Part shown: positions 6,719-60,250 of the stretch, in pieces
Layout of the letters: the number at the start of each line of letters is the position of its first letter
How positions within the stretch are numbered: the stretch's first letter is position 1
IMG/VR virus record: IMGVR_UViG_3300021379_000425
Coordinates: 1 to 64,000 of that record
Source of the DNA: a virus
Direction: 5' to 3' (one strand)
DNA: 64,000 nucleotides
The notes under the pieces: model-generated
Told to the model about the DNA's origin: nothing
Databases searched by the model: none
Seen by the model: the letters and a program-made list of their open reading frames with translations, nothing else
Made by a program: the position numbers and the translations under genes

Positions 6719-7050
6719 TAGAATACGATTTTTGTGACTGTTGTACTCCAATGGAAAATGCTTTTGCTTTGATGAAAGCGAAGAGTAAAAAGCCATTCCA
6801 CGGCTACAATCCTAATAAGCATCACAAAAAAGGTGGACTAAGTGCTAAAGGTCGTGCGGCGGCAAAAAGAAAGACTGGTGCAAATCTAAAACCACCAGTC
6901 ACTACAAAACCAAGTAAACTCAAACCCGGCTCAAAGAAGGCAAAGAGGCGAAAGTCATTCTGCGCTCGTATGAGTGGGGTCAAAGGACCGACTTCAAAGA
7001 AGGGTAAATTAACTCCAAAGGGTGCGGCCTTGAAGCGATGGAATTGCTGA
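6715..7050 (+). CDS. Small very basic protein (marine-phage family with GGLSAKGR...RRKSFCARM...WNC); candidate internal DNA-binding virion protein carrying the PMENAFALMKA tag
   Basis: K/R-rich sequence; ATGA overlap with the upstream gene. Confidence 0.7.
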   Translation: MIEYDFCDCCTPMENAFALMKAKSKKPFHGYNPNKHHKKGGLSAKGRAAAKRKTGANLKPPVTTKPSKLKPGSKKAKRRKSFCARMSGVKGPTSKKGKLTPKGAALKRWNC

Positions 7051-7059
7051 GGCTAGGGT

Positions 7060-8472
7060 ATGTCTGTCATCAAAAACACACGCACAGGGCGATACAGCAC
7101 TGATGCTAATGAAGTGATGACACATGTACGCAAGCCAGTATTTGTAGATAACGCAGTGCATCATGCTAGACTAACACTACAAAAGACCACTAAACCAAAG
7201 GTTGTAATTGAGAACAAAAACTCACGCAATCTACAAGTCATGCCCGAAAGGACATATGAATTAGTTGAGGGAGAGTCTTCTATACAATTGACACACACTG
7301 AAAAGCCGGGTCACACCAGCCTCACCGCCCCTTTCTTTAACGATAATTTAATTTCCAACACTAACAAACCAATGCTAATTTACAATGCTGATGAATCATC
7401 ACAGCGTTTACTACCTCATACAATAGAAAGCAGTTCATTTGGTGTGCTTGCTAACTTGCGTAACTTGAAGGGTAAAACACTCAATGACATTGGATTTACG
7501 GGTAAAAGAGTTAGGCTCGGTCAACCAATTGATGTAGGATTGAGAACAACAGACTTGGCTATGAGATTGGCTGAGTCTATCGAAAGCGGTGCTACTAGCG
7601 TCAATATATCACGCTCACGCAATGTCATCACTGACAAGGCAAGAAAGCATAGTAACCGCTTCGTAGGTACTGACTTCAACAACACCAATTTGATGACCGC
7701 ATTGAGATTCTTGGGTAGACACGACAGTAGAATGTTACTGCTAGATAGATTCGGTAACTTACTGTATGTACCTATCACATTCAGTGAGGCTAACTATGTC
7801 ATAGACAAAGACTTCCGTGTAGGCGGTAAGAGTGAAAACCCAATCGAAAACATTGCTAACAAGGTCACTGTACAAGGTAATCCATTAGCACTCAATGACC
7901 TAGTTATAGTCACTGTCAGTGATGCAGAAGGTCAAACAACGGAAGTAAGAGAGGACTCTTCACCAGTTGTGGATAACACAGTTAGGACCACCAACTCAGC
8001 AAGAAGAGTAGCAAGACAGATACTCAAGGCTAGAGCGTTGACTAAAGGTTCTATCACTAGTGACGGTCACATAGGATTACTAACTTTGAGGCCGGGCATG
8101 TCTGTCAAGTACGATGGTGAGATGAAGGTAGTTACAGAAGTCAAACACATGCCTATGGAGAACCTTAGCAGTTTGACTATGCTAAACCTAGATACGGGCA
8201 TAGAAGGTGTTTTACAGGGCATTACAGAAGGTTCTACAATAGATGCTAACCAAACTAACCCTGCGACATATGTTCAAGTCGTAGAGCAAAATCTCGCACT
8301 ATTTGGAAAAGTTGAATTGCGTATCTCTACTATCATGACCGAGAGGGGAGTACACAACACCGCTTTCCTTATCGGAGGTGTTAAAGGCACTCACGATAGG
8401 GGCAAGATTGGTAAGAGTGGATTACCTATTGGTCTAAACAAGACTGCGGAGGAAGTGACATATGCCGATTAG
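7060..8472 (+). CDS. Putative tail hub/baseplate protein
   Basis: 470-aa ORF in the tail operon; LLLDRFGNLLYVP and LRPGMSVKY-like segments resemble phage hub proteins. Confidence 0.5.
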   Translation: MSVIKNTRTGRYSTDANEVMTHVRKPVFVDNAVHHARLTLQKTTKPKVVIENKNSRNLQVMPERTYELVEGESSIQLTHTEKPGHTSLTAPFFNDNLISNTNKPMLIYNADESSQRLLPHTIESSSFGVLANLRNLKGKTLNDIGFTGKRVRLGQPIDVGLRTTDLAMRLAESIESGATSVNISRSRNVITDKARKHSNRFVGTDFNNTNLMTALRFLGRHDSRMLLLDRFGNLLYVPITFSEANYVIDKDFRVGGKSENPIENIANKVTVQGNPLALNDLVIVTVSDAEGQTTEVREDSSPVVDNTVRTTNSARRVARQILKARALTKGSITSDGHIGLLTLRPGMSVKYDGEMKVVTEVKHMPMENLSSLTMLNLDTGIEGVLQGITEGSTIDANQTNPATYVQVVEQNLALFGKVELRISTIMTERGVHNTAFLIGGVKGTHDRGKIGKSGLPIGLNKTAEEVTYAD

Positions 8473-8806
8473 TGACTACATTAGGCGTTTGCTTATCGAA
8501 ACGATAGCCAACAATATCAACGAAGTCATACTGGGCTTTGATGGTACACCAGCCACTAGTGACGATGGTGCGGCAGGTAGACCAGCGGTGACACTTGTTC
8601 CTACTGTGACAATCGTGGATGATACATCGTTAATAGTCGAGGCAACATTACCCTACGATAATTCTTTTAACGAGAAAATAAAAGAAGTATATATTCAATT
8701 TAGAGATACGGCAGAATTTACACCAGTAGCAAGATATACTGTATCTCCTATAACAAAATCAAACTCCAATGAATTGAAAATTCAAATCGCAATTGAGGTG
8801 GCATAA
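8462..8806 (+). CDS. Putative baseplate/tail-fibre attachment protein
   Basis: 114 aa, coupled to neighbours; C-terminal ARYT..PITK...ELKIQIAIEV pattern resembles tail-collar proteins. Confidence 0.5.
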   Translation: MPISDYIRRLLIETIANNINEVILGFDGTPATSDDGAAGRPAVTLVPTVTIVDDTSLIVEATLPYDNSFNEKIKEVYIQFRDTAEFTPVARYTVSPITKSNSNELKIQIAIEVA

Positions 8807-10380
8807 TGACAGGTAATCCATTATCGGGGCATACGAAGGCAAACGCAGGGTCAATGACTGGCAGTGCAACATTTACAGACGGTCTAACTGACGGTGAACA
8901 CATTGTTAGTCCTACTCTTAGTAACCTGTTAGAAGGGGTTCACGGTAACGGTATCATACTTGAAGAAGATACTGCGAACACTGACAGTGACCGTAACACA
9001 CCGGAAGATTTGCCGGGTGTATGTGAACAAGTCACTAACTCATACACAGTGCGTATAGCAGGTGGACATGTAGTAATTGACGGTGTACTCTACGAGTTTG
9101 CGAATGGACCGGGTTCAAGTGCAGACATAGCGTTAACATCTTCTAGTGCGAACAAAAGAGCATCATATAGCGCACTCTCATCCGGTCAAGAAGTAGCGAT
9201 AGTAATCTATGCTTCTACTGACACAAGCAATGACTGTATCACATGGGAAATGGGTACACCAATCACTACTGCGACCAATGCATACCCTACCACTCCGTCT
9301 GCATTCTTGACCGAACCTAAGAGTTCTTTAGGCGTAAAACAAAGTGTAGTGCTTGCTGTTATGAGAGCAGTATATTCCGCTACTGGTGGAGACTTGAAAC
9401 TCAATTTAAGCGAAAGTAACGACAAGCGTGTGTTTGTTAGACCTGCACCGATGTATCTCACACCAGTAGTAAGCGGTGCGGTAGGTGGCACGACAGGTGT
9501 AACCAACATAGATGCACTACACTCCGGTCAAACTGGAAGTCTTAGCGGTAGTAGATTAGGTGCTATATGGCAATCATACAACGCTGATGGTGGTGCTAAT
9601 TTGTATTACTCAGCAAAAGACAATGGTGGCACAAGACATACTCATCTTCTCGGACCTACATATGTGAATGTATCATCCCCATCCTCTAACCAAACATTCA
9701 CTATGGGTAGTAACAGGATATTTGTTCTCACCCCTTCTACTACAATCAACCTAAACCCAAGCGGTACATTCCCGCAAGGATACATGGTGTTTGTTGATGT
9801 ACCAAGTGGAAGTACAGTAACATTCGATAGCAGTGGTGTCAACACTGCGATAGCATCGGGTACTGGTGCTGTGTTTGCTTATTCGGGTAGCGCATGGAAG
9901 AAGGTATTGTCTAGTGGCGGCGGTGGAGGTATAGCAAGCGTTGTTGCTGATACTACACCTCAATTGGGTGGTGATTTGGATGTCAATGGTAACAAGATAG
10001 TTTCTGCTAGTAGTGGGAATATAGAAATTGAACCGAATGGTACAGGCGATATTATCCTTGATGGTGATGTGAGTATAGACGCAGGACATACATTTAGGGC
10101 TACGACTTTACCAGTAGAGGACATAAACTCCGACCCCAACCCGTTAGTCTTAGACACACACGCTGGTAGGTATTTACTATGTAGTTCAAATATCACGCTT
10201 CCTCCAACTTCAACGCAAGGCGACCAATATTACATTCTAAATGACTCCGGTTCTAGTATTTCCATTCTAAGGAATGGTAACAATATCAACGGGGCGGCAA
10301 GTGATGTAACGCTTACTTCTTACAAAGGTGCTACATGCATCGCCATCGGTTCTAACAACTGGATAGTATTGGGTGTATGA
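8806..10380 (+). CDS. Tail fibre protein
   Basis: G/S/T-rich; DTTPQLGGDLDVNG motif typical of marine phage fibres; ITLPP...GNNINGAA C-terminal domain. Confidence 0.75.
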   Translation: MTGNPLSGHTKANAGSMTGSATFTDGLTDGEHIVSPTLSNLLEGVHGNGIILEEDTANTDSDRNTPEDLPGVCEQVTNSYTVRIAGGHVVIDGVLYEFANGPGSSADIALTSSSANKRASYSALSSGQEVAIVIYASTDTSNDCITWEMGTPITTATNAYPTTPSAFLTEPKSSLGVKQSVVLAVMRAVYSATGGDLKLNLSESNDKRVFVRPAPMYLTPVVSGAVGGTTGVTNIDALHSGQTGSLSGSRLGAIWQSYNADGGANLYYSAKDNGGTRHTHLLGPTYVNVSSPSSNQTFTMGSNRIFVLTPSTTINLNPSGTFPQGYMVFVDVPSGSTVTFDSSGVNTAIASGTGAVFAYSGSAWKKVLSSGGGGGIASVVADTTPQLGGDLDVNGNKIVSASSGNIEIEPNGTGDIILDGDVSIDAGHTFRATTLPVEDINSDPNPLVLDTHAGRYLLCSSNITLPPTSTQGDQYYILNDSGSSISILRNGNNINGAASDVTLTSYKGATCIAIGSNNWIVLGV

Positions 10381-11383
10381 TATGTTCGCTGGTAGTTGCG
10401 CTCAACAAAAAGTACTTTCAAATGCTTACGATTTAAATCACATTAAAACAAAATATGATTCGGGTAGTGAAGTACCGTATGGTAGAAACTTTGACTTCGT
10501 ATCAAATGATTCTGCGTGGATGACTGGTATGAGAGTTCATGGCTCTAACATGTATATTTCTAATAGAGGTAACAACAACCACTTGGATAGTAATAGTGTT
10601 AAGATGTTTAAGTTAGCCATAACTAGTTCTAATGGCGCACCCGACCAAACATTAGATTTAGGAACTTCCACTTTTACTTCTATTGATGGTTTTGATTTGG
10701 CTGATAATGGAACTAATGTTCTAATCGCCGCTTTTCATGGAACAGGTGGAGTTAGAAGCGGAACTTTAGCATCTGCCTTCGATTTTACTTCTACATTTAC
10801 TGCTACTGGTACTCTAAGACAATCGGGTGGTAGTGGTGTAAGAGCATGTTCTTGGAATAATGACGGTACTAAATACTACATGGGTTATGGTGTTGCTACG
10901 AATCAAAGTAAAATAAGACAATTTACCGCTGGTACTACATATCAAACTGCTAGTGGAGATACAGAAGGAACTGAACTTAATTTATCATTTAACAATGTAG
11001 CAGATATTACATTTAATCCCGATGGAACTAAACTGTATGTGGCTGAACACGATGGTTTTTTACATCAGTTCACATTATCATCTGCCTTTGACACTTCAAC
11101 TGCTGGTTCGCAAATAACAGTAGATGTTAGCAGTTTCTTTGGAAATGAAGGAACTAGCCCATCAAGACCTTCTACGGGTACAGGTACTACTATGTGGATT
11201 TGTGGTATGCACTGGAATGACGATGGAACTAAATTATACATTAACTCACTTTGGGGAATGACAAGTACTAGTGCAGTAGTAGGTTCACCCAATCCCTCTT
11301 CTGTTACTGGAAGCGATACGGGAGGAAGCGGTACTACAAGTAGAACAAACACATTCGCAGTTATTGAGTTTTCAGTCAACTGA
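10373..11383 (+). CDS. Beta-propeller protein, probable receptor-binding/adhesin
   Basis: Repeated blades WNNDGTKYY, FNPDGTKLYV, WNDDGTKLYI and TL(A/S)SAFD. Confidence 0.7.
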   Translation: MYDMFAGSCAQQKVLSNAYDLNHIKTKYDSGSEVPYGRNFDFVSNDSAWMTGMRVHGSNMYISNRGNNNHLDSNSVKMFKLAITSSNGAPDQTLDLGTSTFTSIDGFDLADNGTNVLIAAFHGTGGVRSGTLASAFDFTSTFTATGTLRQSGGSGVRACSWNNDGTKYYMGYGVATNQSKIRQFTAGTTYQTASGDTEGTELNLSFNNVADITFNPDGTKLYVAEHDGFLHQFTLSSAFDTSTAGSQITVDVSSFFGNEGTSPSRPSTGTGTTMWICGMHWNDDGTKLYINSLWGMTSTSAVVGSPNPSSVTGSDTGGSGTTSRTNTFAVIEFSVN

Positions 11384-11608: not shown

Positions 11609-13126
11609 TCATTGCGCTGGTCTTCTTGCTACAATGTCATCAATTCTTAGGATGGCGTTAGTAACTTCTGCGGCACTCAATACTGCTTGCCTTACCAGTG
11701 ATAGAGGTTCAACTACTCCTTGCTCTAATAGGTCTAATACGCCGCCATCTTTGACATTTGGACCGACATTAGGATTACCTTGTAGAATCTCGTGTCTCAT
11801 GGCTAGAATGGTATCTAGTGGGTCATGTCCAGCATTCTCAGCAACGGTAGCAGGAATCACCTCTAAAGCGTCAGCAAACGCCTCAATAGCCATTTGCGCC
11901 CTACCACCTATCTGTGCCGCATGATTTCGTAGGTGCATAGCCATACGAGCGTATGCGTTACCTCCACCGACTACAATGCTCTTGTTTTTAATTACCAGTG
12001 AAACAACACCCAAAGCGTCATCAAACCCACGCTCGACTTCTTCTAGTGTGTGAGATGTAGCACCACGCAGTACAAGTGTAGCCTCTTGGCTCTCTTCTTC
12101 ACTGCTTACAAATAGATACCAAACATCATTCTTTCTCTCACGCTCAATTGTTACATCAGCGCACCACTCGAAGTCATCCGGTGTTTGTATGATAGGTAGG
12201 TTAGTAGCACGACTCAATGCACGAAGAGAAGACTCCGGTACACGCCTTACTACCATGATGTTGTGCTTCTTCAAGAAAGTGCATACAACATCGTTGACAT
12301 TATCTCTAGCAAAGACTACACCACCGTTAGGCATTGCCTCCACTATTGGTTTACAACTAGCAATCAAGTCAGCCTTTCCTGCTTTCTTGTATGTTTGATA
12401 TGATTCTACATTGACTTGCAGTTGAATGTTTTCTTCACTCTTCTCACTGTCCAGTCCTGCATTGATTAGCACCATCTTTGAGTATGAGTTGTCACCCTCA
12501 AGTACGAAGTCTTTGTTGACTATAACACCATCAAATAGTGTTGAGTCCTCTAGTGAGCCACCGGGGAAGGATACTACCTTCACACTCTCAGCGTCACCTG
12601 CTTTCTTGACCGCATCTACACACAATGCAGATACATACTCAATAGCACTCTCTAGTGTTTTACCAGTGATTGCAGTACGAGCGATTGATGTCAAGTCTTC
12701 ATCAGTGCCACCTTTAATGGCAATCTCATCTTTTAGATAGTTTACAGCCATCTGCGCCGCCTCATGATAACCACGACAAATGACATTCGGGTGTAGACCC
12801 TTTTCAAACAACATTTCACTGTTACCGAGTAGTTGACCCGACAACACGACTGTACTCGTTGTACCGTCATAGCAAAGCGATTCTTGTGTCTTTGCTACTT
12901 CTGCAATCATCTTTCCACCCGGATGTGATACATCTAATTCTCTCAATATGGTAGCACCATCGTTGGTAACAATAACATTGCCACCACCGTCTACCATCAT
13001 CTTGTCCATACCCATAGGACCGAGTGTAGACTTTACTGTGTCTGCTACACCTTTAGCCGCCCTTATGTTATGTATCTGCGCTTTTCCACTTCCTTTCTTC
13101 TCCTGTTCTGCCATAGTATTCACCAT
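11609..13126 (-). CDS. ths: Group II chaperonin (thermosome subunit)
   Basis: TLGPMGMDKM, TNDGATIL, DGTTS, GGG and ILRIDD motifs. Confidence 0.95.
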   Translation of the reverse strand: MVNTMAEQEKKGSGKAQIHNIRAAKGVADTVKSTLGPMGMDKMMVDGGGNVIVTNDGATILRELDVSHPGGKMIAEVAKTQESLCYDGTTSTVVLSGQLLGNSEMLFEKGLHPNVICRGYHEAAQMAVNYLKDEIAIKGGTDEDLTSIARTAITGKTLESAIEYVSALCVDAVKKAGDAESVKVVSFPGGSLEDSTLFDGVIVNKDFVLEGDNSYSKMVLINAGLDSEKSEENIQLQVNVESYQTYKKAGKADLIASCKPIVEAMPNGGVVFARDNVNDVVCTFLKKHNIMVVRRVPESSLRALSRATNLPIIQTPDDFEWCADVTIERERKNDVWYLFVSSEEESQEATLVLRGATSHTLEEVERGFDDALGVVSLVIKNKSIVVGGGNAYARMAMHLRNHAAQIGGRAQMAIEAFADALEVIPATVAENAGHDPLDTILAMRHEILQGNPNVGPNVKDGGVLDLLEQGVVEPLSLVRQAVLSAAEVTNAILRIDDIVARRPAQ

Positions 13127-34703: not shown

Positions 34704-35354
34704 CTAGGCTACTCGCCTCGCCAAATCCTGCACTCGCTGTTGCATTATGTTACGAGTTTGATTATCTCGTAAGTGTTGAAGCGCATCTTCCATTGCTGAT
34801 TGCCCTCCGTGAATATCGTAAGACCTTCCTATGTCTTGTTCTGTTATACCTGCTAATGCAGGATTCTTTTCTCGTAGTGTATCTAGTTCACCTACGCTTG
34901 TAGCAAACGCACCACCTTTCGGTGCGCCCATTGCCCTGTACTTCCCAGCCCCGCCTACATCAACATAGGAGAGTGTACCATCGGGTCTTCGTATTGCATT
35001 GTCGCCCTCCATCCCTAGTACATCCCAGTTCGCTACAAGGGCGTGGGGTACAAAGTCTGTCGTCAGTTGGCGTATGTCTTGTTGTGTAGGATTGTATCCT
35101 ACTGGTTGTCCTGCCTCCATTTCTGTGAGCATAGTATCACCTTGTAGTCCTGCTCGTGGTACTGCCACTCCCAACGCATTGAGATATTGATTCATGTCAA
35201 ATTCATTTTGTATATGGTCGGGGTGTGCGCCACGCTTCTCTACAAATCTACCCATTGGTAGGTCGTGTCCTCTTGCGCCAGTCGAGCCACCCATGAACCT
35301 ACCCTGTGGTTGGTTCTGCCTTAGATAGTCAAAGGCTTCATCGAATGCGCTCAT
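34704..35354 (-). CDS. Atypical kinase-fold protein (HipA/PI3-4-kinase-like) with N-terminal AFDEAFDYLR tag
   Basis: Gly loop GGSTG, FVEK, NE, catalytic-loop-like ANWDVLG..GDN, VDVGG. Confidence 0.6.
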   Translation of the reverse strand: MSAFDEAFDYLRQNQPQGRFMGGSTGARGHDLPMGRFVEKRGAHPDHIQNEFDMNQYLNALGVAVPRAGLQGDTMLTEMEAGQPVGYNPTQQDIRQLTTDFVPHALVANWDVLGMEGDNAIRRPDGTLSYVDVGGAGKYRAMGAPKGGAFATSVGELDTLREKNPALAGITEQDIGRSYDIHGGQSAMEDALQHLRDNQTRNIMQQRVQDLARRVA

Positions 35355-51589: not shown

Positions 51590-51598
51590 CCTTGAATT

Positions 51599-51935: not shown

Positions 51936-52049
51936 GTGATATTAATTGCTTTTCAGTAGGTGAATATTAATTGCTTCTCGATAGGCGTTTGATGTGGGGA
52001 AATGAAAGCCTCCCCTTCCCATGTGAAGTGAATACCATCAGCCTCATAA

Positions 52050-52210: not shown

Positions 52211-52240
52211 TGCGAATTGCGCTATGCGAATTTTTGCGAT

Positions 52241-52279
52241 AAAAAAAGCCCCCCGCACCCCCACAGGGGTACGAGGGGC
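52241..52279 (-). terminator. GC-rich hairpin plus T-tract terminator
   Basis: - strand GCCCCTCGTACCCC-TGT-GGGGGTGCGGGGGGC-TTTTTTT downstream of the 52326 gene. Confidence 0.75.
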
Positions 52280-52325
52280 GAACTCGGCTAACCGCCGTAC
52301 TACTTCACTCGGCTACGAGTTATGC

Positions 52326-53219: not shown

Positions 53220-53228
53220 CCTTCGATT

Positions 53229-53248
53229 CTTTAGCAGTTTATATACTA
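53229..53248 (-). promoter_or_regulatory. Viral promoter motif copy 10 (divergent: TAGTATATAAACTGCTAAAG)
   Basis: Same 3' half and the same spacing to a GTG as the other copies. Confidence 0.7.
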
Positions 53249-53274
53249 AAGACGCTTTTTGCACTTGTTAGAGA

Positions 53275-53540
53275 ACCATAGCGCATAGCGTATAGCAGGT
53301 CATAAGCATGGGTGTACTACCCATATGGGTTGGGGTTAAGGTGTCGCTATTTATGGGGGCTTACGCCCTTACGGGCGCAGGATTAGGGGCGAGGTTGGTG
53401 GGAGAGGGCATCTCACCCGCCCGCCCATAGGCAGGTACAGGGGCGCAAGGGGGTCATAGCACGACCCCATAGCACGGTTTTCCCCACCCCATAGCACGCC
53501 CTTAGAAGGAGGCATAGCCATAGCACACCCCATAGCCCTT
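53275..53540. repeat. GC-rich non-coding strand-switch region with CATAGC / CCCCATAGCAC repeats
   Basis: About nine CATAG(C) units between divergently transcribed arms. Confidence 0.65.
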
Positions 53541-53619
53541 CTTTTAACCGCATACACCTCTCGGAGAAAAAAATTACAAAATGAAAAATTTTTAATAAAC
53601 ACCCCTCATACGAGTATCA

Positions 53620-53973
53620 ATGTCTCCTTTCCAAGACGCATGGAATATTTTGAAATCAAATGTCTATAATGCCGCTAGGCGTTCCACTTTACCAGCATAT
53701 CACCCTGCGATTATGGGTATGATGGAAAGAAGATACTTGACAGGTGAAGCAGGACCATTTGAAGGATTTGAGCCTAGCGATGTCCACCCTAACGAGCAAT
53801 CACCATTTAGAGTAAACAACATAGCAAATATGAGGGCTGATGAACTAAGAGGTAGAATACAACGCCAAAGTGTACCTAAAGTGATGCCGTATACAGATTC
53901 TCCTAGCGATGAAAACATAGACAGGGAATCTCGTGAGCAACTTCTTAGAGAAAGTAGACCGCAATTTAGATGA
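53620..53973 (+). CDS. Tagged hypothetical protein (MSPFQDAWNILKS)
   Basis: N-terminal tag; TATA-like TTTTTAATAA about 25-30 nt upstream. Confidence 0.65.
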   Translation: MSPFQDAWNILKSNVYNAARRSTLPAYHPAIMGMMERRYLTGEAGPFEGFEPSDVHPNEQSPFRVNNIANMRADELRGRIQRQSVPKVMPYTDSPSDENIDRESREQLLRESRPQFR

Positions 53974-54038
53974 TAATGGTCATTCCAGTGGTCAACCAGT
54001 AAGTTTAACTTCTACACCGCTATCGTCTGTAAGATAGC

Positions 54039-54872
54039 ATGGAAGTCACAGTGTACGAAGTCGGTCCTAGAGATGGTTTGCAGTACCTTGATGACATCGT
54101 GCCGACTAGAGAGAAAGTCAAACTAATCGAGATGCTGTACGACAGTGGGCTTACCAAAATCGAGGAAGTCAGTTTCGCTCACCCCAAACTGCTACCGCAG
54201 ATGGCTGACGCTGAGGCTGTTTTCACAGGGAGTGGGTCTGTGCTGGTGATGAACCAGCGTGGGTTCGAGCGAGCCAATTCGTGCGGTGTCGTGCTAATCA
54301 ATGTGGTTATCAGTCCTTGCGAAGTCTTCAATGTCAAGAATACCGGCAAAACACGGTCCGAGTTGATGACGATGTACAAAACAATGCTGGCGAATCACCC
54401 TAAGCAGTTCGTGAGGGTGTACATCAGCATGGCGTTTGGTAGTCCGTATAGTGGGCAGTTTAGTGCAAGAGAGATTCGTAACTGCGTGAGGGATGCAAGG
54501 ATGCTTGGCGGTACAGTGGTCTTTGCTGATACCGTAGGGGCTGGTACGCCCGATGAAGTAAAGATGATGGCTGACATAGCCAAAGATGAAGGTGTGCGCC
54601 CGGCTTTGCATCTGCATCATAAGGGCGAAGACGAGAAAGCGATTCGTTTGGTGCAGGCGGGGCTGATGGCTGGTATAACTGAGTTTGATAGCAGTATAGC
54701 CGGGCTTGGTGGGTGTCCGTTTGCTGAGGGTAGTGGTGCTAACCTGTCTACCTCGACACTGGTGCGTCATTTACATGCATGGGGCTTTGAGACAGGCGTT
54801 GACGAGAAAAAGTTAATTGCCGCTGAAAAATTCGTTAATTATTTTAGTCGTGACTCCATCCCAGCCCCATGA
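54039..54872 (+). CDS. Hydroxymethylglutaryl-CoA lyase (DRE-TIM family)
   Basis: EVGPRDGLQ, ADTVG, HLH, GLGGCPFA, NLST motifs. Confidence 0.9.
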   Translation: MEVTVYEVGPRDGLQYLDDIVPTREKVKLIEMLYDSGLTKIEEVSFAHPKLLPQMADAEAVFTGSGSVLVMNQRGFERANSCGVVLINVVISPCEVFNVKNTGKTRSELMTMYKTMLANHPKQFVRVYISMAFGSPYSGQFSAREIRNCVRDARMLGGTVVFADTVGAGTPDEVKMMADIAKDEGVRPALHLHHKGEDEKAIRLVQAGLMAGITEFDSSIAGLGGCPFAEGSGANLSTSTLVRHLHAWGFETGVDEKKLIAAEKFVNYFSRDSIPAP

Positions 54873-55099
54873 GCGCATTTGACAAGGCGTGGAGTTTACT
54901 CAAGCAACAGCCAATGATAGGCGACCCGGAAGGACCTTTGGCACAAGCACTGGCTAGAGCAAGGCAACAACCAAAGCCAAAACCTTTGCAGATAACCAAT
55001 CTACCGCCTAAAGAGCCTCAAATGGTGCAGACTCAACTGCCAGCCGAACTAACTCAAGGCGCACATGAGACACCTTTCAAGATATTCGGTCAGCAGTGA
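54869..55099 (+). CDS. Tagged small P/Q-rich protein (MSAFDKAWSLLKQ)
   Basis: N-terminal tag; ATGA overlap. Confidence 0.65.
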   Translation: MSAFDKAWSLLKQQPMIGDPEGPLAQALARARQQPKPKPLQITNLPPKEPQMVQTQLPAELTQGAHETPFKIFGQQ

Positions 55100-55103
55100 T
55101 AGC

Positions 55104-55856
55104 ATGACACCGATGGAGAAGGCTTGGCAATTGCTCAAGGCGACCTATCGCATTGAGGCACAGCGACCAATGTATGCACATTCAGGTAGAAGGGAGTATA
55201 GGCTCTTAGACCAAGACGACAATGTTTTATCAACACTATCAGGTGATTTGTCAAGAAATAACAGTCTTAGTGATATTCACGGACATACTCGTGGAAAATA
55301 CCGTAGACAAGGAAATTATAAAAAATTGATAAATGCTCTATTACAACAAGGTATAGGTATAACTAGTAGTGAAAGAAACGATAAATCTCACCCATTTCAT
55401 GAAAAGTTCATGTCTAATTTACCTAAGAATGTAGATTATGCTGATACATTTAATGATTTTCACCACCTTACACCAATACACTATTCAAAAAAGAAAACCG
55501 CAAGATTCCCAAATAGCGATTTGAATATTCGTGACTACGGCTCTATTCCTATACATCATCTAGGATATGAAAATCCTACTGAAAATAGTAGATTCCACGG
55601 CACAATGGATAATAGAAGATTAACTGAATTTGCTGGTCATTCAATGTTCCCCGGTAGAGTAGCAAATCCTTTAGATTTCGCTAGAGACTGGGCATGGGAA
55701 GATTATGATAAAACTCGAAATGAAAAAGAGAAATTAAATCGTTTACAAGTGGATAACCAACCTGAGACTTTCCAAGCCGGACTCGCTAATTATGACAGGA
55801 ATTTTCTTAAACCGCCTGAATTACAGCAGTTCCTAGATGATATTAACCAAAGATAA
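55104..55856 (+). CDS. Tagged protein with GNAT-like acetyltransferase domain
   Basis: Start MTPMEKAWQLLKA; KYRRQGNYKKLINALL resembles GNAT motif A. Confidence 0.6.
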   Translation: MTPMEKAWQLLKATYRIEAQRPMYAHSGRREYRLLDQDDNVLSTLSGDLSRNNSLSDIHGHTRGKYRRQGNYKKLINALLQQGIGITSSERNDKSHPFHEKFMSNLPKNVDYADTFNDFHHLTPIHYSKKKTARFPNSDLNIRDYGSIPIHHLGYENPTENSRFHGTMDNRRLTEFAGHSMFPGRVANPLDFARDWAWEDYDKTRNEKEKLNRLQVDNQPETFQAGLANYDRNFLKPPELQQFLDDINQR

Positions 55857-55965
55857 TCATGATTAAGTCCTCTATTAGAGGCTTGATAATCTTCTCATAC
55901 AACCATGCAAACGGCATTAAAATAATCGCTAAACAAACTTTTGCTACTCCTTTCAACAGTGACAT
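55843..55965 (-). CDS. 40-aa hydrophobic peptide (not in ORF track)
   Basis: Hand translation MSLLKGVAKVCLAIILMPFAWLYEKIIKPLIEDLIMIIFG. Confidence 0.4.
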   Translation of the reverse strand: MSLLKGVAKVCLAIILMPFAWLYEKIIKPLIEDLIMIIFG

Positions 55966-55977
55966 CCCAAATCCCCA

Positions 55978-57486
55978 TCAGTAGTAGAATTGGGGTGGAG
56001 TATATGTTGGTTTTGCTATATCATCAACATCTTCCTGCATTCCGGTGAGTAATTTGACGACATGTTCCATGTCCGGGTGGATATTTCCTACCATAGTGCC
56101 GTCACTTGTCTCTTCAAATGTGTGATTGCGGTCTAGCACTGCAAGGTCACGGCGCATATCTTCACTGATTTCGTTAGGAAGTTGTAGTTCACCCTTGAGC
56201 ATACGCCATGCTAAGTCCATTGGTTCACTTTTTAGTACTAATTTTTCATTTCCATATTCATCAGTTTCTATTACATAAGCCCCCGATGATAGCATCATCT
56301 GTACTTGTGGGTCATTGCGGTCAACTTTAGTTGGTTCTGCTTGGACATTCAGTGGATTGACAGTATCGTTTTTTGCCCTAATGTTAAGCAAGTTTTGTTG
56401 TAGCGGGTGCTGTGCTTGAAGATATGTAGACCTCGGTGCGCCAGTTTCGGGGTCAATATCCATTCTACCGGCAAAGTTTTGCATCATTCTATCAGCACCT
56501 TGCCTGTAAATGTTTCTTGGATTGAATATATTAGTTAAATTTGCAGAAGATGAAACATCATCTCTACTGATTCTACCGCCCTCAGCGACTCTTTCTACTG
56601 CTCTTTGGTTTATTTCTTGGGCAGATGGTCCTTTTGATTCCATAAATTTAGGTGCAGAAACGAATTCATACTCGGAATCTCTTATTGGATGCCATTCTTT
56701 TGTCTGTCGATGACCAGTATGATGTTCTGCGCCTACTGTTATTAAACCGATACCGCTTCCTCCATCTTCTGCTCTTGATGTTTTATGTCCGATTACATAG
56801 TGTGGTCTATCAATGCCCTCTTTAGGTTCATCAGTGGAGAGTCCGGGTACTTTCAAAACAGGATATTCATTGTATGTTTCATTACCCAGCCTTGTTTCTA
56901 TTTTAGTGTTAAGATACTCTTTCAGTTCGGGATTTTTCTCTAATAAAATATCTGCAACTGCAAGTGCTACATCTTCATGAGAATAACCCTCAAGACCTTT
57001 TGGCATTTCTTGATTCGGTTCTATTCTCTTATCAGCGTTTTTAGAATAATGATTTTTATCTGCTAAACCGACAGTGTGTTTTTTCCCTCTTTTCATTTGT
57101 GCTTTAATATTGTCTATTTGACTGTCATTCCACATGGCATCCCATTTCCATGCTTTCATCAAATTCCAAAGGATGTCCATCGGCTCACCTGTGCGTATTT
57201 CGCTACCGGCTTTTGCCGCTTGAGCCATCTGTTGATTTTGATTCATCATGTTTTGCTGTTGCATTTGTTGGCGGTTTGCCTGTTGCTCACCTACATTTGA
57301 AGCGATTTGTCCAGCAGTTAGAGCCTGTCCAGCCTTCGTGTTGCCAGCCTGTACTGCGACCTTACCTACTTTCTTGGCGGCCTGTTTAGCACCCTGTACT
57401 GCCGCCTGCCTTCCAGCCTGTGTAGCCACTGCACCAGCAACCGCCTTTGCACCGGCGATAAGTGCAGGAGGTATGAACGCCGGCAT
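55978..57486 (-). CDS. Multi-segment protein with A/G/Q-rich N-terminus and two internal tags
   Basis: EPMDILWNLMKA and EPMDLAWRMLKG. Confidence 0.7.
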   Translation of the reverse strand: MPAFIPPALIAGAKAVAGAVATQAGRQAAVQGAKQAAKKVGKVAVQAGNTKAGQALTAGQIASNVGEQQANRQQMQQQNMMNQNQQMAQAAKAGSEIRTGEPMDILWNLMKAWKWDAMWNDSQIDNIKAQMKRGKKHTVGLADKNHYSKNADKRIEPNQEMPKGLEGYSHEDVALAVADILLEKNPELKEYLNTKIETRLGNETYNEYPVLKVPGLSTDEPKEGIDRPHYVIGHKTSRAEDGGSGIGLITVGAEHHTGHRQTKEWHPIRDSEYEFVSAPKFMESKGPSAQEINQRAVERVAEGGRISRDDVSSSANLTNIFNPRNIYRQGADRMMQNFAGRMDIDPETGAPRSTYLQAQHPLQQNLLNIRAKNDTVNPLNVQAEPTKVDRNDPQVQMMLSSGAYVIETDEYGNEKLVLKSEPMDLAWRMLKGELQLPNEISEDMRRDLAVLDRNHTFEETSDGTMVGNIHPDMEHVVKLLTGMQEDVDDIAKPTYTPPQFYY

Positions 57487-57502
57487 GGAATTACCATAGA
57501 GC

Positions 57503-57521
57503 GATAATTCTTTAAATTATC
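57503..57521. promoter_or_regulatory. Probable bidirectional TATA promoter
   Basis: GATAATT-CTTTA-AATTATC quasi-palindrome with TTTAAA about 26-27 nt from both divergent ATGs (57486, 57539). Confidence 0.55.
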
Positions 57522-57538
57522 CGTAATTAAAACATTTC

Positions 57539-60250
57539 ATGCGTAGGGGCGAAGACATCGAGAAAGCCCCTTCCAAACCTAAATCTTTCAAAGAATATTT
57601 AGAAACAATGCTGTCCGAAACTCCACCGTGGGCTTTGTACGAGGAAGGTGGAGAAACGGCACTTGATTATTCACCTTACGACCACCCTAAACTGAAAAAT
57701 GTTGAAGATAAAAAGAAAGAAGATAAATTAAGAGAGTTGCTATTACATGATGAACCTAGATACCGACCTAGACTTCTTGACCCCGAAAATGCTGTGTTTG
57801 TACCTAAATTAGATGATAGATTAGATTCTGTTATAGATGACCCTTTGATAAACTATGGTAAAAAATTCGCAAAGCCTTTTGAAAATGTAATAAGACAGGG
57901 TAAAAGATTAGTTGACCCTAAATTAATACGACCAAAATCGAGTGTACAAACTACATTACCGCAACATTTTCCTAGACTAACAACCGAAAATCCTTACGAT
58001 GAAGAGGGTAGAATAAAACCCGGTGCTATTGCGCCGATAACTGCTTTTAAACAAATGGGTAGAGATGCTTTCAATAATCTTCTTTCTTACGGTTTGATAC
58101 CCGGATTAACAGTTGATTCCTTAGATTGGGAAGATAGGTCTAATTTACGAGATATGACTCCTGTTCCTGTAAAATCGGGGGCATCATTTGTAGCCCCAGT
58201 AGGTACTTTAGATGCCATAAGGGGTACAATGAATCAATCGGGAGGTCGAGGAAAACCGATTTATGTAGGCATTAGAGGATTTGCACAACCGGAAGATAAA
58301 GCATTCTTGAGAACAGACAGTAGAGAACCAATAGAGGCGGCGGCTTTGGGTCGTATTCCACCGGAAAGATTGGTTTTACCTTTCAATGTAGCACAATCGG
58401 GAAAGGAATTTGGAAGCCCACTTTCTTTTGAAGAATGGCGAAATGCTTCAAAAGGACCTACAACATTTGAAGATTATGTGGCACAAATGAAAGGTCCGAG
58501 GTATCTTCAACATTTACAAGATGCTGGATATACGGAAGAAATAGATGATTACAGGCAACTTTGGAATAGTAGACAAGATATGCAAAGATTAGATTATGAA
58601 AAGTATTTACAAACAATGAAAAATTCTAGTATAAGAACAAATTTATTGAATCAAAGACTGGCTGAATTAGGAGAAGATTTTCCACCCTTAACGGCTGAAA
58701 ATTACCCAATGGAAGGGGGGCAAAGAAATCCTTACCAAACATTATACTACGAACATCTTTACGAAGATAAATTTCCAAAAACTGCCGCTGATACAAAAAA
58801 TACAAGGGTAAAACAGGCTTTAGGTGCTGTGCCGAAAGAATGGAGTCAAAACACTAAATTTAATTTGATGAACCCTGCTTTAAGCGATGCTGAAAGGGAA
58901 GCAATAAGACAAGAATTTCAAGCGAATGCTGACCACGAAATACATATGAATAGTAGACATGATGGCACTGTTCACCCTGCTCAATTCAATAGAATTACAA
59001 GAGGTTTGATGAGCGCAATATATGGTCCACAAGCATCTAATATGATTGATTTCCGAGACAATGTAGGAGATTCTTATTCCGAAAGAGGTGAAAAAATAGG
59101 ATTAGAAATGAATAACCCAGCGGCGGCATCGTTAGGATTACCTAATACATGGAACGCACCTCAATTATTCAATCCTAATTTCAATCCTAATCAATCAGTG
59201 ATAAAAGCACCAAGAATCACTGCATACAGTCCTAGAGAAATAAGAGACATAGCACCCGACCTGCAAGGAATTAGGTATATACCGAAAGAATACTTAGAAT
59301 CCGCTGGTAAGCCAATTAGAGTTCATAGTGGTGGGAAAAGAGGTGTAGGGCAATCCTATGATTGGGAGCAGGATTTACAGCGATTAAAATACGATATACC
59401 GCAAAGTAGTTTTTATTCATGGATGATAAATAAACCAAAACCGCTTACAGGTTTGTTTAGTGAAGAATTTAGAATGATACCCGAATACAATATTGCAGGA
59501 AGAGAGTTAGAATTATCTCCGGTTGAAAGTGGAAATATTGTCGCTGGACAGTTTATGCACCCACCAGTAAAAGAAGCATTAAGAGAACCCGATTATACTG
59601 CACATCTTCACAGACCGATGGCTCTCACTGGAATATTGGAACAGCCTCAATTCATGAGAGAAGGAACTGAGGGGTCTAAAGGATTAGGTGAAGGATTCCA
59701 CTATGGAGAACTAGAGCCGGATTCTGTCGTACAATTAGAACTACCACATAATATACAGCCTATGGAAATGGCTAGTGTTGCTAGGAAAAGAGAGTATGAT
59801 AGACCTAGAAATCAAAGAGAGAAAGACGCAATGAATTGGTTAAGCCACATACCAAGTATGGGTGTGCCTACATCTACTGAATGGTGGAAGCAACAGGGTG
59901 CAACGGAAATGACCGCACCTCAACTTGAACAGGCTGGATTATTCCAAGCCGGTGAACCAATGGACATCGCTATGCAGTTGCTAAAGCGGGAGATGAGTCC
60001 GGAAGCGAAACAACATAAACTCGAATATGACAAGAAGTATGAGTCCACGCCGGAGAGAGTCAAGTATCGTGAAGAGTTGAACCGTGAGCGCAGAAAGCGT
60101 GGTATCTACGGTAGCGGCGACCATATGGATGTCAGTCACACCGAGGGTGGTAAGTTAACTCTCGAAGGTGAACATGAGAATAGAGCGAGACATTTCAAAG
60201 AGCGTGGTACGCTTAGACCTAGCAAAATCGCTGTACGCAAAGACAATTGA
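57539..60250 (+). CDS. Multidomain protein: two possible ADP-ribosyltransferase-like domains and a tagged C-terminal HNH-like domain
   Basis: PITAFK...GLIPG...YVGIR...E....IPPERL; IRVH...GE....LEPDSV; EPMDIAMQLLKR then DVSH...ENRARH. Confidence 0.5.
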   Translation: MRRGEDIEKAPSKPKSFKEYLETMLSETPPWALYEEGGETALDYSPYDHPKLKNVEDKKKEDKLRELLLHDEPRYRPRLLDPENAVFVPKLDDRLDSVIDDPLINYGKKFAKPFENVIRQGKRLVDPKLIRPKSSVQTTLPQHFPRLTTENPYDEEGRIKPGAIAPITAFKQMGRDAFNNLLSYGLIPGLTVDSLDWEDRSNLRDMTPVPVKSGASFVAPVGTLDAIRGTMNQSGGRGKPIYVGIRGFAQPEDKAFLRTDSREPIEAAALGRIPPERLVLPFNVAQSGKEFGSPLSFEEWRNASKGPTTFEDYVAQMKGPRYLQHLQDAGYTEEIDDYRQLWNSRQDMQRLDYEKYLQTMKNSSIRTNLLNQRLAELGEDFPPLTAENYPMEGGQRNPYQTLYYEHLYEDKFPKTAADTKNTRVKQALGAVPKEWSQNTKFNLMNPALSDAEREAIRQEFQANADHEIHMNSRHDGTVHPAQFNRITRGLMSAIYGPQASNMIDFRDNVGDSYSERGEKIGLEMNNPAAASLGLPNTWNAPQLFNPNFNPNQSVIKAPRITAYSPREIRDIAPDLQGIRYIPKEYLESAGKPIRVHSGGKRGVGQSYDWEQDLQRLKYDIPQSSFYSWMINKPKPLTGLFSEEFRMIPEYNIAGRELELSPVESGNIVAGQFMHPPVKEALREPDYTAHLHRPMALTGILEQPQFMREGTEGSKGLGEGFHYGELEPDSVVQLELPHNIQPMEMASVARKREYDRPRNQREKDAMNWLSHIPSMGVPTSTEWWKQQGATEMTAPQLEQAGLFQAGEPMDIAMQLLKREMSPEAKQHKLEYDKKYESTPERVKYREELNRERRKRGIYGSGDHMDVSHTEGGKLTLEGEHENRARHFKERGTLRPSKIAVRKDN

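What the first reader, a model, noticed from the sequence alone, without database searches (positions are those of the whole stretch)
6745..59989. Shared 'P-M-D/E-x-A-W-x-L-L-K' tag on unrelated proteins: candidate virion-packaging and processing system for effector cargo
Seen: eight copies of a ~11-aa amphipathic motif in seven otherwise unrelated ORFs. They are PMENAFALMKA (6715 gene), SAFDEAFDYLRQ (35354), PFQDAWNILKS (53620), AFDKAWSLLKQ (54869), PMEKAWQLLKA (55104), EPMDILWNLMKA (~57150-57189) and EPMDLAWRMLKG (~56191-56229) in one protein, and EPMDIAMQLLKR (59951-59989). The motif sits at or near an N-terminus or, apparently, at a domain boundary. What follows it differs each time: basic DNA binder, kinase fold, GNAT, HNH-like, disordered peptide. 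Established: T4 internal proteins and Alt are loaded into proheads and processed by the prohead protease, and the IPs use a short N-terminal capsid-targeting sequence. Inference: this is an analogous modular address label, possibly with cleavage after the conserved K, that lets an archaeal virus package and inject interchangeable host-modifying enzymes. Internal copies would make polyproteins.
Basis: partly seen in the sequence, partly recalled or inferred. Interest (0 to 1): 0.88.

Follow-up and report, generated by a model that had tools for sequence, protein, structure and literature searches.

The report
Shared address tag on magrovirus proteins
An abundant ocean archaeal virus puts the same ten-residue helix at the start, middle or end of many unrelated proteins encoded next to its head genes, most likely to load them into the capsid, although neither loading nor cutting has been measured.

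Summary
All 8 claimed copies are the 8 best sites in the window under a scoring matrix built only from other viral contigs (14-36 bits; shuffled proteomes give 0.06 hits at 12 bits or more). The genome is a group-A-like magrovirus, 85 kb. It holds 3-4 more copies outside the window.

A back-translated strict pattern hits 98 IMG/VR stretches, against 1 for a reversed-order control. It hits only 13 stretches in 596 Gb of cellular genomes, most of them chance. Those loci hold 392 copies in 307 ORFs: 186 N-terminal, 180 internal, 26 C-terminal. The copies sit on at least 106 unrelated clusters. Conservation is at the peptide level, not the DNA level. Thirty-one internal copies lie exactly where a free-standing, N-terminally tagged homologue begins.

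In two complete relatives every copy lies in one block just upstream of terminase, co-oriented with the head genes.

Best reading (about 0.5): a portable docking helix that loads variable cargo into the procapsid, perhaps clipped after Lys by the S78 prohead protease. Packaging, receptor and cleavage are all untested. Earlier agents of this scan reached the same reading on other magrovirus genomes. My searches of the held paper library found no mention of it.

The parts
6748..6777 (+). Tag copy PMENAFALMK, near the N-terminus (residues 12-21) of gene 6715-7050. The cargo is the basic DUF6321 domain.
   Evidence: Regex. Scores 17.6 bits. DUF6321 E 1.2e-16. Homologues with CC(S/T)PM(D/E)xAFAL(M/I)K in other loci.
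35319..35351 (-). Weak N-terminal tag copy SAFDEAFDYLR of gene 34704-35354. This is the only copy inside the replication-gene block.
   Evidence: Regex. Scores 14.0 bits, equal to the null maximum. No Pfam or PDB match for the protein.
53626..53655 (+). N-terminal tag copy PFQDAWNILK of gene 53620-53973, the first gene of the rightward tagged array.
   Evidence: Scores 23.8 bits. No homologue in the 98 loci.
54875..54904 (+). N-terminal tag copy AFDKAWSLLK of gene 54869-55099 (76 aa, no recognised domain).
   Evidence: Scores 32.1 bits.
55110..55139 (+). N-terminal tag copy PMEKAWQLLK of gene 55104-55856. The ORF is listed from 55065, but the likely start is 55104.
   Evidence: Scores 36.3 bits. 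The M-T-P-M-E start fits the N-terminal class logo.
57154..57183 (-). Internal tag copy PMDILWNLMK (residues ~102-111) of gene 55978-57486.
   Evidence: Scores 22.8 bits.
56194..56223 (-). Internal tag copy PMDLAWRMLK (residues ~422-431) of gene 55978-57486.
   Evidence: Scores 35.9 bits.
59957..59986 (+). Internal tag copy PMDIAMQLLK of gene 57539-60250, placed directly in front of the C-terminal phrog_6437 cassette.
   Evidence: Scores 35.6 bits. The alignment with free-standing and fused homologues starts at the tag.
59999..60202 (+). phrog_6437 cargo domain (residues 821-888 of the 903-aa protein), the commonest cargo behind the tag in relatives.
   Evidence: phrog_6437 E 1.3e-17. Found in 10 of 147 tagged representatives. 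Untagged homologues in cyanophages.
53620..60250 (.). The part of the tagged-gene array that lies in the window. In the genome the array runs on to 69033, just upstream of terminase at 69880. Its gene content varies between relatives, while its flanking genes are conserved.
   Evidence: Gene map. Homologue counts per gene. Same placement in two complete relatives.

Best explanation
The motif is a portable, position-independent docking peptide. The internal and C-terminal form is [TKA]-[GS]-E-P-M-D-[IL]-A-W-[RQ]-L-L-K. The N-terminal form is M-[TNS]-[PA]-[FM]-[DE]-x-A-W-x-[LVI]-L-K. It is a short amphipathic helix whose hydrophobic residues at i, i+4 and i+7, together with an invariant small Ala, would fit into a groove of one common receptor.

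Magroviruses attach it to a large, fast-changing set of unrelated protein cassettes encoded in one array next to the head-assembly genes. The most likely role is to recruit these proteins into the assembling procapsid as internal or ejected cargo. [quoted passage not shown] The HK97-type (S78) prohead protease may then clip after the conserved Lys.

Shown here:
- the tag exists and is under peptide-level selection
- it is lineage-wide and modular
- it sits at cassette joints
- it clusters beside the head genes

Inferred, not shown:
- the receptor (scaffold, capsid interior or portal)
- presence of the cargo in virions
- any cleavage
For: 1. The motif is non-random and virus-specific. It gives 98 IMG/VR stretches against 1 for the reversed-order control. 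It gives 13 stretches in 596 Gb of cellular genomes. Seven of these have a stop beside the match and none is titled Poseidoniales. Of 1.84 billion cluster representatives, 494 match the 30-column profile at E <= 0.001, with up to 7 stretches per protein.

2. Selection acts on the peptide. Synonymous codons vary freely (Pro CCA 44, CCT 24, CCG 17; Leu uses six codons; mean third-position identity 0.47).

3. The tag is an autonomous unit. Copies are 186 N-terminal, 180 internal and 26 C-terminal, the last with 0-11 residues after Lys. Spacing within one ORF has a median of 160 aa.

4. The tag is an add-on to cassettes. At 31 of 180 internal sites the downstream part equals a free-standing N-tagged protein, and at 6 sites the upstream part equals a protein ending in a C-terminal tag. 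DUF6321 and phrog_6437 homologues in bacteriophages lack the tag.

5. Genomic context. In this genome 10 of 12 copies lie at 53.6-69.0 kb, directly upstream of TerL. In complete relatives, 20 of 20 copies (G002) and 11 of 11 (G004) lie in the same pre-terminase block; 30 of these 31 are on the head-gene strand (one G002 copy is on the opposite strand), and none lies in the replication block. Of 295 orientable tagged ORFs, 288 share the strand of the structural genes. A further 31 copies sit in proteins 1.7-3 kb downstream of the capsid gene in MCP-anchored loci.

6. The array is hypervariable, like the T-even internal-protein loci. The tagged genes at 53620, 54869 and 34704 have 0 homologues in the 98 loci, whereas the flanking genes have 18-24. 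For T4, the review says the internal proteins are diverse with only a conserved CTS (PMC3012670, passages read).

7. Hint for clipping. An S78 protease is present. The sites (E/D)(L/I)LK-AD in the capsid protein and ILK-ED just after the protease domain are invariant. The residues after the tag's Lys are likewise enriched: A/E at +1 in 99 of 307 contexts and D/E at +2 in 93 of 307, against 13% and 11% expected.
Against: - No datum places any tagged protein in a virion, and no receptor is identified.
- The pre-terminase array could equally hold early or accessory genes that merely share the strand of the head genes. Expression timing is unknown.
- A chaperonin gene is present in 9 of 10 tag-bearing records, including 5 of 5 complete ones. 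A chaperonin-client reading is therefore not excluded.
- One copy lies in the replication block (35319-35351). Two lie in a gene on the opposite strand (55978-57486).
- The scaffold's C-terminal tail, which earlier notes on other magroviruses said the tag imitates, does not resemble the tag here (-21.5 bits, index 127 of 417 Trp sites).
- The LLK resemblance to the capsid and protease sites rests on three residues. The genome's called proteins hold 58 [LIVM][LI]K sites.
- Halovirus HVTV-1, the nearest cultured relative by capsid protein (about 36% identity), shows no tag in 50 kb around its head genes. No experimental system therefore carries over.
- The predicted tag helix has low confidence (pLDDT about 55-67).
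Confidence: 0.5

Rival explanations
1. The tag is a hub-binding short linear motif on non-packaged accessory or early proteins. It would dock them onto one common partner inside the infected cell. The partner could be the virus's own group II chaperonin (a client tag) or a host protein.
For: - The tagged array is the first, hypervariable part of the rightward gene block. That position is typical of host-takeover genes.
- A Cpn60/TCP1 chaperonin is encoded in 9 of 10 tag-bearing records, including 5 of 5 complete ones, and in this genome at 11609-13126.
- Cargo includes enzyme types that act in cytoplasm, among 147 representatives: HD_4 in 2, GNAT in 1, a SLOG domain in 1.
Against: - The chaperonin lies in the replication block and is universal in this clade, so the co-occurrence does not discriminate.
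- The strict motif is essentially absent from cellular genomes, including the host order, so it does not copy a host motif.
- Copies also occur in proteins inside the structural module downstream of the capsid gene, and on DUF6321, which in a pelagiphage sits between the scaffold and capsid genes.
Confidence: 0.2
2. The tag is only a processing signal. It would be the recognition helix and cut site at which a protease, either the S78 prohead protease or a host enzyme, separates polyprotein cassettes. It would have no targeting role.
For: - Tags sit at cassette joints: 31 of 180 internal sites, with median spacing of 160 aa.
- Lys is near-invariant at the end of the tag, and A/E then D/E are enriched after it.
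- Invariant LLK-AD in the capsid protein and ILK-ED just after the protease domain look similar. The K-A-D is shared with the HVTV-1 capsid protein.
Against: - 186 of 392 copies are at the extreme N-terminus and 26 at the extreme C-terminus, the latter with 0-11 residues after Lys. Cutting there separates nothing.
- Ten conserved residues with an invariant Ala-Trp are more than most protease sites need.
- No cleavage has been observed.
Confidence: 0.15
3. The tag is a functionally neutral linker helix. It would have spread only because cassettes duplicate and recombine together with their leading helix.
For: Cassettes move as tag-plus-domain units. One large single-linkage cluster of 141 ORFs shows extensive domain sharing.
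Against: - The cargo has diverged beyond recognition into at least 106 clusters, while ten tag residues stay fixed with free synonymous change. That is strong purifying selection on the peptide itself.
- Domain families shared with bacteriophages carry the tag only in magroviruses.
Confidence: 0.07
4. The conserved element is a DNA-level box, for recombination or regulation. The peptide would be a by-product.
For: Module swapping happens at the tag.
Against: Among 87 strict copies there are 81 distinct 30-mers. Third positions are only 47% identical, and Leu, Pro, Arg and Lys use several codons each. All copies are in frame within long ORFs.
Confidence: 0.02

Closest known systems
Capsid targeting sequence (CTS) of the phage T4 / T-even internal proteins IPI-III and Alt
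   Same: - A short peptide is the only thing shared by a diverse, fast-changing set of proteins.
- A prohead protease is encoded in the same genome.
- The cargo genes form a hyperplastic locus.
In the review's words, T-even internal proteins are a highly diverse set with only a conserved CTS to encapsidate them into the scaffolding core (PMC3012670, passages read).
   Different: - The T4 signal is strictly N-terminal and is removed by the T4-type protease. This tag also works, or at least occurs, internally and at C-termini, up to 8 times per protein.
- The protease here is HK97-type S78.
- The host is archaeal.
- Sequence likeness to the T4 CTS was not tested here.
- Packaging and cleavage are demonstrated for T4 and not here.
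Phage P1 Dar system (DarA, DarB, Hdf, Ddr, Ulx), internal anti-restriction proteins loaded into the head
   Same: Several unrelated internal proteins are packaged with the DNA. One of them, DarA, is N-terminally processed and binds the inner capsid surface (PMC12810830, passages read).
   Different: In the passages I read, loading in P1 depends on an ordered protein hierarchy and folded binding domains. They describe no shared short peptide. I did not search for homology to the Dar proteins.
Ejection-protein propeptides of giant phages (SPN3US / phiKZ group), cut by the prohead protease
   Same: Many head-internal proteins are processed by one protease at a short consensus (PMC7411985, abstract only seen).
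   Different: That consensus is a three-residue cut site, as I recall it and not from any call. It is not a ten-residue helix. No portable address peptide has been defined there.
Polyvalent proteins and MuF-fused polymorphic toxins of phage head modules (recalled from the literature, not read here)
   Same: Variable effector domains are strung together and delivered through the virion. The related halovirus HVTV-1 has large proteins annotated 'head assembly' and 'zeta toxin' between its portal and protease genes. This genome has a 1898-aa protein with a ligase domain in the same place.
   Different: Those systems use a folded N-terminal anchor domain, not a repeated short peptide. No Pfam family other than DUF6321 was found in the window's tagged proteins at E <= 0.01.
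Dockerin-cohesin logic of cellulosomes (works-like comparison only, recalled)
   Same: One small docking module on many unrelated enzymes would recruit them to a common scaffold.
   Different: Dockerins are folded domains of about 70 aa that bind repeated cohesins. No repeated receptor domain was found in the giant proteins here (no self-hits).

Membership tests
T4-type capsid-targeting-sequence system | One short conserved peptide shared by otherwise unrelated proteins of one virus | tested here: met
   There are 8 copies in the window and 3-4 more in the genome. No BLASTP hit links the nine tagged proteins once the tags are masked.
T4-type capsid-targeting-sequence system | The signal sits at the extreme N-terminus of the precursor | tested here: not met
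   Only 186 of 392 copies are N-terminal; 180 are internal and 26 C-terminal.
T4-type capsid-targeting-sequence system | Tagged proteins are found inside proheads and virions | not testable with these tools
   No proteomic data and no cultured host. Only the genomic context speaks for it.
T4-type capsid-targeting-sequence system | The signal is removed by the T4-type (gp21-like) prohead protease | tested here: not met
   The genome's prohead protease matches Peptidase_S78 / S78_2, the HK97 type (E 1.1e-9 and 5.7e-8). Whether it cuts the tag cannot be tested here.
T4-type capsid-targeting-sequence system | The cargo locus is hypervariable between related viruses | tested here: met
   The tagged genes at 53620, 54869 and 34704 have 0 homologues in the 98 loci, and 55978 has 2. 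Untagged neighbours have 18-24.
Magrovirus (group A-like, virus of Marine Group II archaea) | Head-tail structural module (TerL, portal, prohead protease, HK97-fold capsid protein related to haloviruses), plus archaeal-type replication genes; a thermosome and SNF2 helicase in group A; a LAGLIDADG nuclease and a ligase inside the structural module | tested here: met
   Pfam and PHROG hits. The capsid protein is about 34-36% identical to those of haloviruses. The features are as described in PMC5434244 (passages read).
DUF6321 (PF19846), for the 6715-7050 protein | Match above Pfam's gathering score | tested here: met
   61.5 bits against a cut-off of 28.5, E 1.2e-16, residues 36-109. The tag lies outside the domain, and pelagiphage homologues lack it.
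MuF-anchored polymorphic toxin / polyvalent protein | A folded MuF-like or other recognised anchor domain at the N-terminus of the tagged proteins | tested here: not met
   The window's tagged proteins have no Pfam family at E <= 0.01 other than DUF6321. Among 147 tagged representatives only 9 Pfam families appear, none of them an anchor.

The most novel reading that the evidence does not exclude
Magroviruses use a position-independent ten-residue helix as a universal loading code. Any protein cassette that carries it, at either end or at an internal joint, is drawn into the capsid, and multi-tag polyproteins are cut into separate effectors there. If so, the injected arsenal of an uncultivated, globally abundant archaeal virus group could be read straight from sequence. 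That arsenal would span at least 494 protein clusters at 50% identity. The tag would also be the first cargo-loading signal known in archaeal viruses and a ready tool for loading foreign proteins into HK97-type capsids.
Probability: 0.4. Interest if true: 0.85.

Novelty: new variant of a known kind. Interest (0 to 1): 0.72.

Why it matters
Magroviruses are among the most abundant archaeal viruses of the surface ocean, and most of their genes are unannotated.

A single peptide marks hundreds of otherwise dark protein families and concentrates them beside the head genes. That gives the dark genes a common handle. If the tag is a capsid-loading signal, it defines the set of proteins delivered into Marine Group II archaea at infection. 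It would extend the T4 internal-protein principle to archaeal viruses in a more flexible form that works at either end or internally and in several copies.

It also offers a simple, testable reagent: fuse the tag to a reporter and rebuild procapsids. If instead the tag binds the viral chaperonin or a host hub, that would be a new kind of virus-encoded client code. Either way the observation turns an unknown into a direct experiment.

Tried and rejected
1. Co-fold of the capsid protein (A3), the protease-scaffold (A4) and the tag-plus-phrog_6437 piece (A2). The verdict was 'no answer', score 0.00, and controls were not run. This is not evidence either way.

2. AlphaFold2 of the tag-plus-phrog_6437 cassette. 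Mean pLDDT was 55.5. The tag is modelled as a helix (residues 10-20), but the model is too poor for a fold search.

3. AlphaFold2 of the capsid protein, meant to place the LLK-AD site. Mean pLDDT was 30, so the model is unusable.

4. ESM Atlas search with the 502-aa two-tag protein gave no usable hit.

5. tblastn of the 502-aa protein against GenBank phages gave no match.

6. PDB sequence searches for the 34704 and 55104 proteins gave nothing meaningful.

7. A repeated receptor, on the cohesin model, in the giant proteins: no internal repeats by self-BLAST.

8. The lead from earlier notes that the tag copies the scaffold tail: not seen in this genome.

9. A DNA-level box: rejected on codon diversity.

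10. Mimicry of a host motif: the strict pattern is essentially absent from 185,579 species genomes. Degenerate forms were not searched there.

11. Tag in haloviruses: none at 6 bits or more in 50 kb of HVTV-1. Only that one region of one halovirus was scanned.

12. The paper with HVTV-1 virion protein data (PMC3592136) is not held. I could not check whether the mature capsid protein starts after the conserved Lys.

13. A plain HMMER profile of the 13-mer was too strict for the divergent copies. I replaced it with an ungapped scoring matrix.

Full report
WHAT THE WINDOW IS

The window is the first 64 kb of an 85,252-bp single-contig virus record.

The minus-strand block at 11.6-53.3 kb holds archaeal-type replication genes:
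- a group II chaperonin (Cpn60_TCP1, 11609-13126)
- a PD-(D/E)XK nuclease
- a family B DNA polymerase (19552-21954)
- an RFC-like AAA ATPase
- DUF932
- an SNF2 helicase (42038-44602)

The plus-strand genes run from 53620 to the contig end and continue at 1-11383. Outside the window they include the following:
- terminase large subunit (69880-71367)
- a LAGLIDADG-like gene
- portal (73512-75248)
- a 1898-aa protein with a ligase domain
- an HK97-type S78 prohead protease fused to a scaffold-like tail (82307-83683)
- an HK97-fold capsid protein (83680-84789)

These are the features that Philosof et al. describe for group A magroviruses, viruses of Marine Group II archaea (PMC5434244, passages read). 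The nearest cultured relatives by capsid protein are haloviruses, at about 34-36% identity.

The contig is probably incomplete. It has no terminal repeat. Complete relatives are 100-110 kb. The giant ORF at 2-6718 is open at the window's start.

THE OBSERVATION

To avoid circularity I built the scoring matrix from other sequences. A back-translated strict pattern (P-M-D-x-A-W-x-L-L-K) matched 98 stretches of IMG/VR, with 112 matches in all. The same codons in reversed order matched 1 stretch.

A matrix from those 63 unique copies scores six of the eight window copies at 10 bits or more. Shuffled six-frame proteomes give 0.04 such hits.

After four rounds of iteration on the IMG/VR loci only, the eight claimed copies are the eight best sites in the window (14.0-36.3 bits). 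Nothing else reaches even 4 bits. The null gives 0.06 hits at 12 bits or more, with a maximum of 14.0 over 50 shuffles. The copy at 35319-35351 is therefore borderline.

None of the window's copies matches the strict pattern itself, so the family is much larger than the 112 strict hits.

With tags masked, the nine tagged proteins of the genome share no BLASTP hit.

The genome holds further copies outside the window:
- two in the 685-aa protein at 64952-67009; these are a variant with one extra residue after Trp
- one six residues from the C-terminus of the 675-aa protein at 67006-69033
- a weak one at 75613-76002

ANATOMY ACROSS RELATIVES

In the 98 loci the matrix finds 392 copies at 15.6 bits or more, in 307 ORFs. 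Of these, 186 are N-terminal, 180 internal and 26 C-terminal. The C-terminal copies have 0-11 residues after Lys. One ORF carries up to 8 copies.

Two flavours appear:
- N-terminal: M-[TNS]-[PA]-[FM]-[DE]-x-A-W-x-[LVI]-L-K
- internal and C-terminal: [TKA]-[GS]-E-P-M-D-[IL]-A-W-[RQ]-L-L-K, often preceded by two hydrophobic residues

Spacing between copies in one ORF has a median of 160 aa (IQR 114-204), which is the size of a domain.

Synonymous positions vary freely. Selection therefore acts on the peptide, not on a DNA box.

The tagged ORFs fall into 106 single-linkage clusters. Of 206 representatives I scanned 147, namely those of 60 aa or more after dropping the three longest to fit the size limit. 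Only 9 Pfam families appeared: DUF5872 in 3, DUF6321 in 2, HD_4 in 2, DnaJ zinc finger in 2, and single hits to GNAT, a SLOG domain and others. The commonest PHROG was phrog_6437, in 10 of 147.

A 30-column profile of internal copies finds 494 proteins at E <= 0.001 among 1.84 billion cluster representatives. Of these, 213 are at 1e-10 or better, and one protein has up to 7 matched stretches. This is a lower bound, because a single copy scores near the threshold.

THE TAG IS AN ADD-ON AND A JOINT

At 31 of 180 internal copies, the sequence just after the tag is homologous to a free-standing protein that starts with an N-terminal tag. In both proteins the alignment begins at the tag. One example is a 598-aa protein whose last 167 residues are 91% identical to a 167-aa tagged protein. 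At six internal copies the upstream part matches a protein that ends in a C-terminal tag.

In loci anchored on the capsid gene, proteins of roughly 180-340 aa lying 1.7-3 kb downstream of it keep one N-terminal part, then the tag. After the tag come quite different C-terminal modules, or nothing.

Two cargo domains also occur in marine bacteriophages, without the tag:
- DUF6321 in pelagiphage HTVC119P gp28, which lies between the scaffold and capsid genes
- phrog_6437 in Syn5 gp50 and S-CBS2 gp045

WHERE THE TAG OCCURS

Of the 98 loci, 96 share at least one untagged gene with this genome. Where a capsid gene is present it is 67-78% identical (13 loci). The strict tag therefore marks one magrovirus clade. 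That clade is common: at least 597 IMG/VR stretches encode a relative of its capsid protein.

In 596 Gb of cellular genomes from 185,579 species the pattern matched 13 stretches, about what chance predicts. Seven of them have a stop codon beside the match. One (L109) carries a typical magrovirus context and is probably a mis-binned viral contig. None is titled as the host order.

HVTV-1 has no copy at 6 bits or more in the 50 kb around its head genes.

GENOMIC CONTEXT

In this genome 10 of 12 copies lie at 53.6-69.0 kb, the stretch that ends at terminase.

I scanned two complete relatives whole:
- G002 (108,650 bp) has 20 copies, all between 106,999 and the contig end or between 31 and 20,403. 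Terminase is at 18,770.
- G004 (107,203 bp) has 11 copies, all between 90,861 and 105,643, on the strand of, and upstream of, terminase at 85,063-86,574.

Neither genome has a copy in the replication block or in the tail and giant-gene region. Shuffles give 0.1 and 0.0 hits.

Across loci, 288 of 295 orientable tagged ORFs share the strand of the structural genes. Seven do not, and 12 could not be oriented. These loci were picked around tags, so this count is not independent of the clustering.

The array's content is fluid. The tagged genes at 53620, 54869 and 34704 have no homologue in the 98 loci, and 55978 has two. The untagged neighbours (54039, and 60492 to 64260) have 18-24.

HOW IT MOST LIKELY WORKS

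A ten-residue unit that is conserved at the peptide level is best read as a short helical docking motif for one common receptor. Three features point that way:
- It works at either end of a protein or between domains.
- It has an invariant small residue next to an invariant Trp.
- It has hydrophobic residues spaced i, i+4, i+7.

The N- and C-terminal copies argue against a pure cut site, because cutting there would separate nothing.

Its confinement to an array abutting and co-oriented with the head genes fits procapsid loading. So do the copies inside the structural module, the hypervariable cargo and the presence of a prohead protease. The closest known system is the T4 capsid-targeting sequence, of which a review says the internal proteins are highly diverse with only a conserved CTS to encapsidate them into the scaffolding core (PMC3012670, passages read).

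A clipping step after Lys is possible:
- The capsid protein has an invariant (E/D)(L/I)LK-AD at residues 34-39.
- The protease has an invariant ILK-ED at 166-170, just after its catalytic domain.
- The K-A-D is shared with the HVTV-1 capsid protein.
- The two residues after the tag's Lys are enriched for A/E and then D/E (99 and 93 of 307 contexts, against 13% and 11% expected).

This is only a hint. The likeness rests on three residues, and the genome's proteins hold 58 [LIVM][LI]K sites.

WHAT SPEAKS AGAINST THIS READING, AND THE RIVALS

Nothing places a tagged protein in a virion, and the receptor is unknown.

The array could hold early or accessory genes that merely share a strand with the head genes.

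Every complete tag-bearing genome I checked encodes a chaperonin (5 of 5; 9 of 10 records overall, the tenth being a 61%-complete fragment). A chaperonin-client tag or another intracellular hub is therefore not excluded.

Earlier notes of this scan on other magrovirus genomes say the tag imitates the scaffold's tail. In this genome the conserved Trp site of the scaffold tail scores -21.5 bits and is unremarkable among 417 Trp sites.

NOVELTY

Earlier agents of this scan found the same kind of tag on at least twelve other windows and read it the same way. Their notes are AI leads, not independent evidence. I formed my reading before I opened them.

In the held literature:
- The strings PMDLAW, PMDIAW, AWRLLK and AWQLLK occur in no paper of the library.
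- 'DUF6321' occurs in none.
- The three magrovirus papers I searched with 'find' do not mention such a motif (PMC5434244; PMC11706807; PMC10160649).
- Supplements were closed and could hold annotation tables I did not see.

I class it as a new variant of a known kind: a capsid-targeting-type label, here position-independent and in archaeal viruses. The function is unproven.

Noticed in passing
window 2-6718 (+): The giant ORF is open at the window and contig start (2238 aa seen). In two complete relatives the homologous stop-to-stop frame is 5,529 aa (G002 44404-60990) and 5,979 aa (G004 42933-60869). This is one of the longest frames I have seen in an archaeal virus. It has no Pfam or PHROG match and carries no tag.
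   Followed up: partly
window 54039-54872 (+): An HMGL-like gene (pyruvate carboxyltransferase / HMG-CoA-lyase family, E 3e-22) sits inside the tagged array. It is untagged and conserved in 18 of the 98 loci. Its stop overlaps the start of the tagged gene at 54869. The first magrovirus paper reported that no auxiliary metabolic genes were observed in magroviruses.
   Followed up: no
window 60492-64000 (+), continuing to 64952 in the genome: A conserved block of about seven small genes splits the tagged array and is present in 22-24 of the 98 loci. It includes a P-loop GTPase-like protein (61326-62042) and Cys-rich proteins (62216-63139 and 64260-64952). None has a Pfam match. The block could encode partners of the tag.
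   Followed up: partly
genome 83680-84789 and 82307-83683 (outside the window; loci L102, alignments A3 and A4): Invariant (E/D)(L/I)LK-AD at residues 34-39 of the capsid protein, and invariant NPEAxFxILK-ED right after the S78 protease domain. These are candidate maturation sites. The K-A-D is shared with the halovirus HVTV-1 capsid protein.
   Followed up: partly
window 6715-7050 and 59999-60202; loci L100, L197, L198: Two small, very basic domains (DUF6321 and phrog_6437) are shared between this archaeal virus and marine bacteriophages of cyanobacteria, SAR11 and Flavobacterium. This suggests gene flow across host domains in the surface ocean.
   Followed up: partly
L109 (Parvibaculum MAG contig); L110, L111, L114 (Nitrospinota MAG contigs): L109 carries a tag in a context identical to that of magrovirus proteins and is probably a viral contig binned into a bacterial MAG. 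The three Nitrospinota contigs share an in-frame tag-like site of unknown origin.
   Followed up: no
genome 73512-75248 and 64952-69033 (outside the window): The portal has a zinc-ribbon insert and a long Pro/Met/Gln-rich tail. The two large tagged proteins upstream of terminase carry similar Pro/Met/Gln-rich stretches.
   Followed up: no
genome 64952-67009; G002 14412 and 14865; G004 91461: The conserved pre-terminase protein carries a tag variant with one extra residue between Trp and Leu-Leu (A-W-S-x-L-L-K). This variant resembles the W-x-x-[IL]-[LIV]-K tags that earlier notes report from other magrovirus groups.
   Followed up: partly
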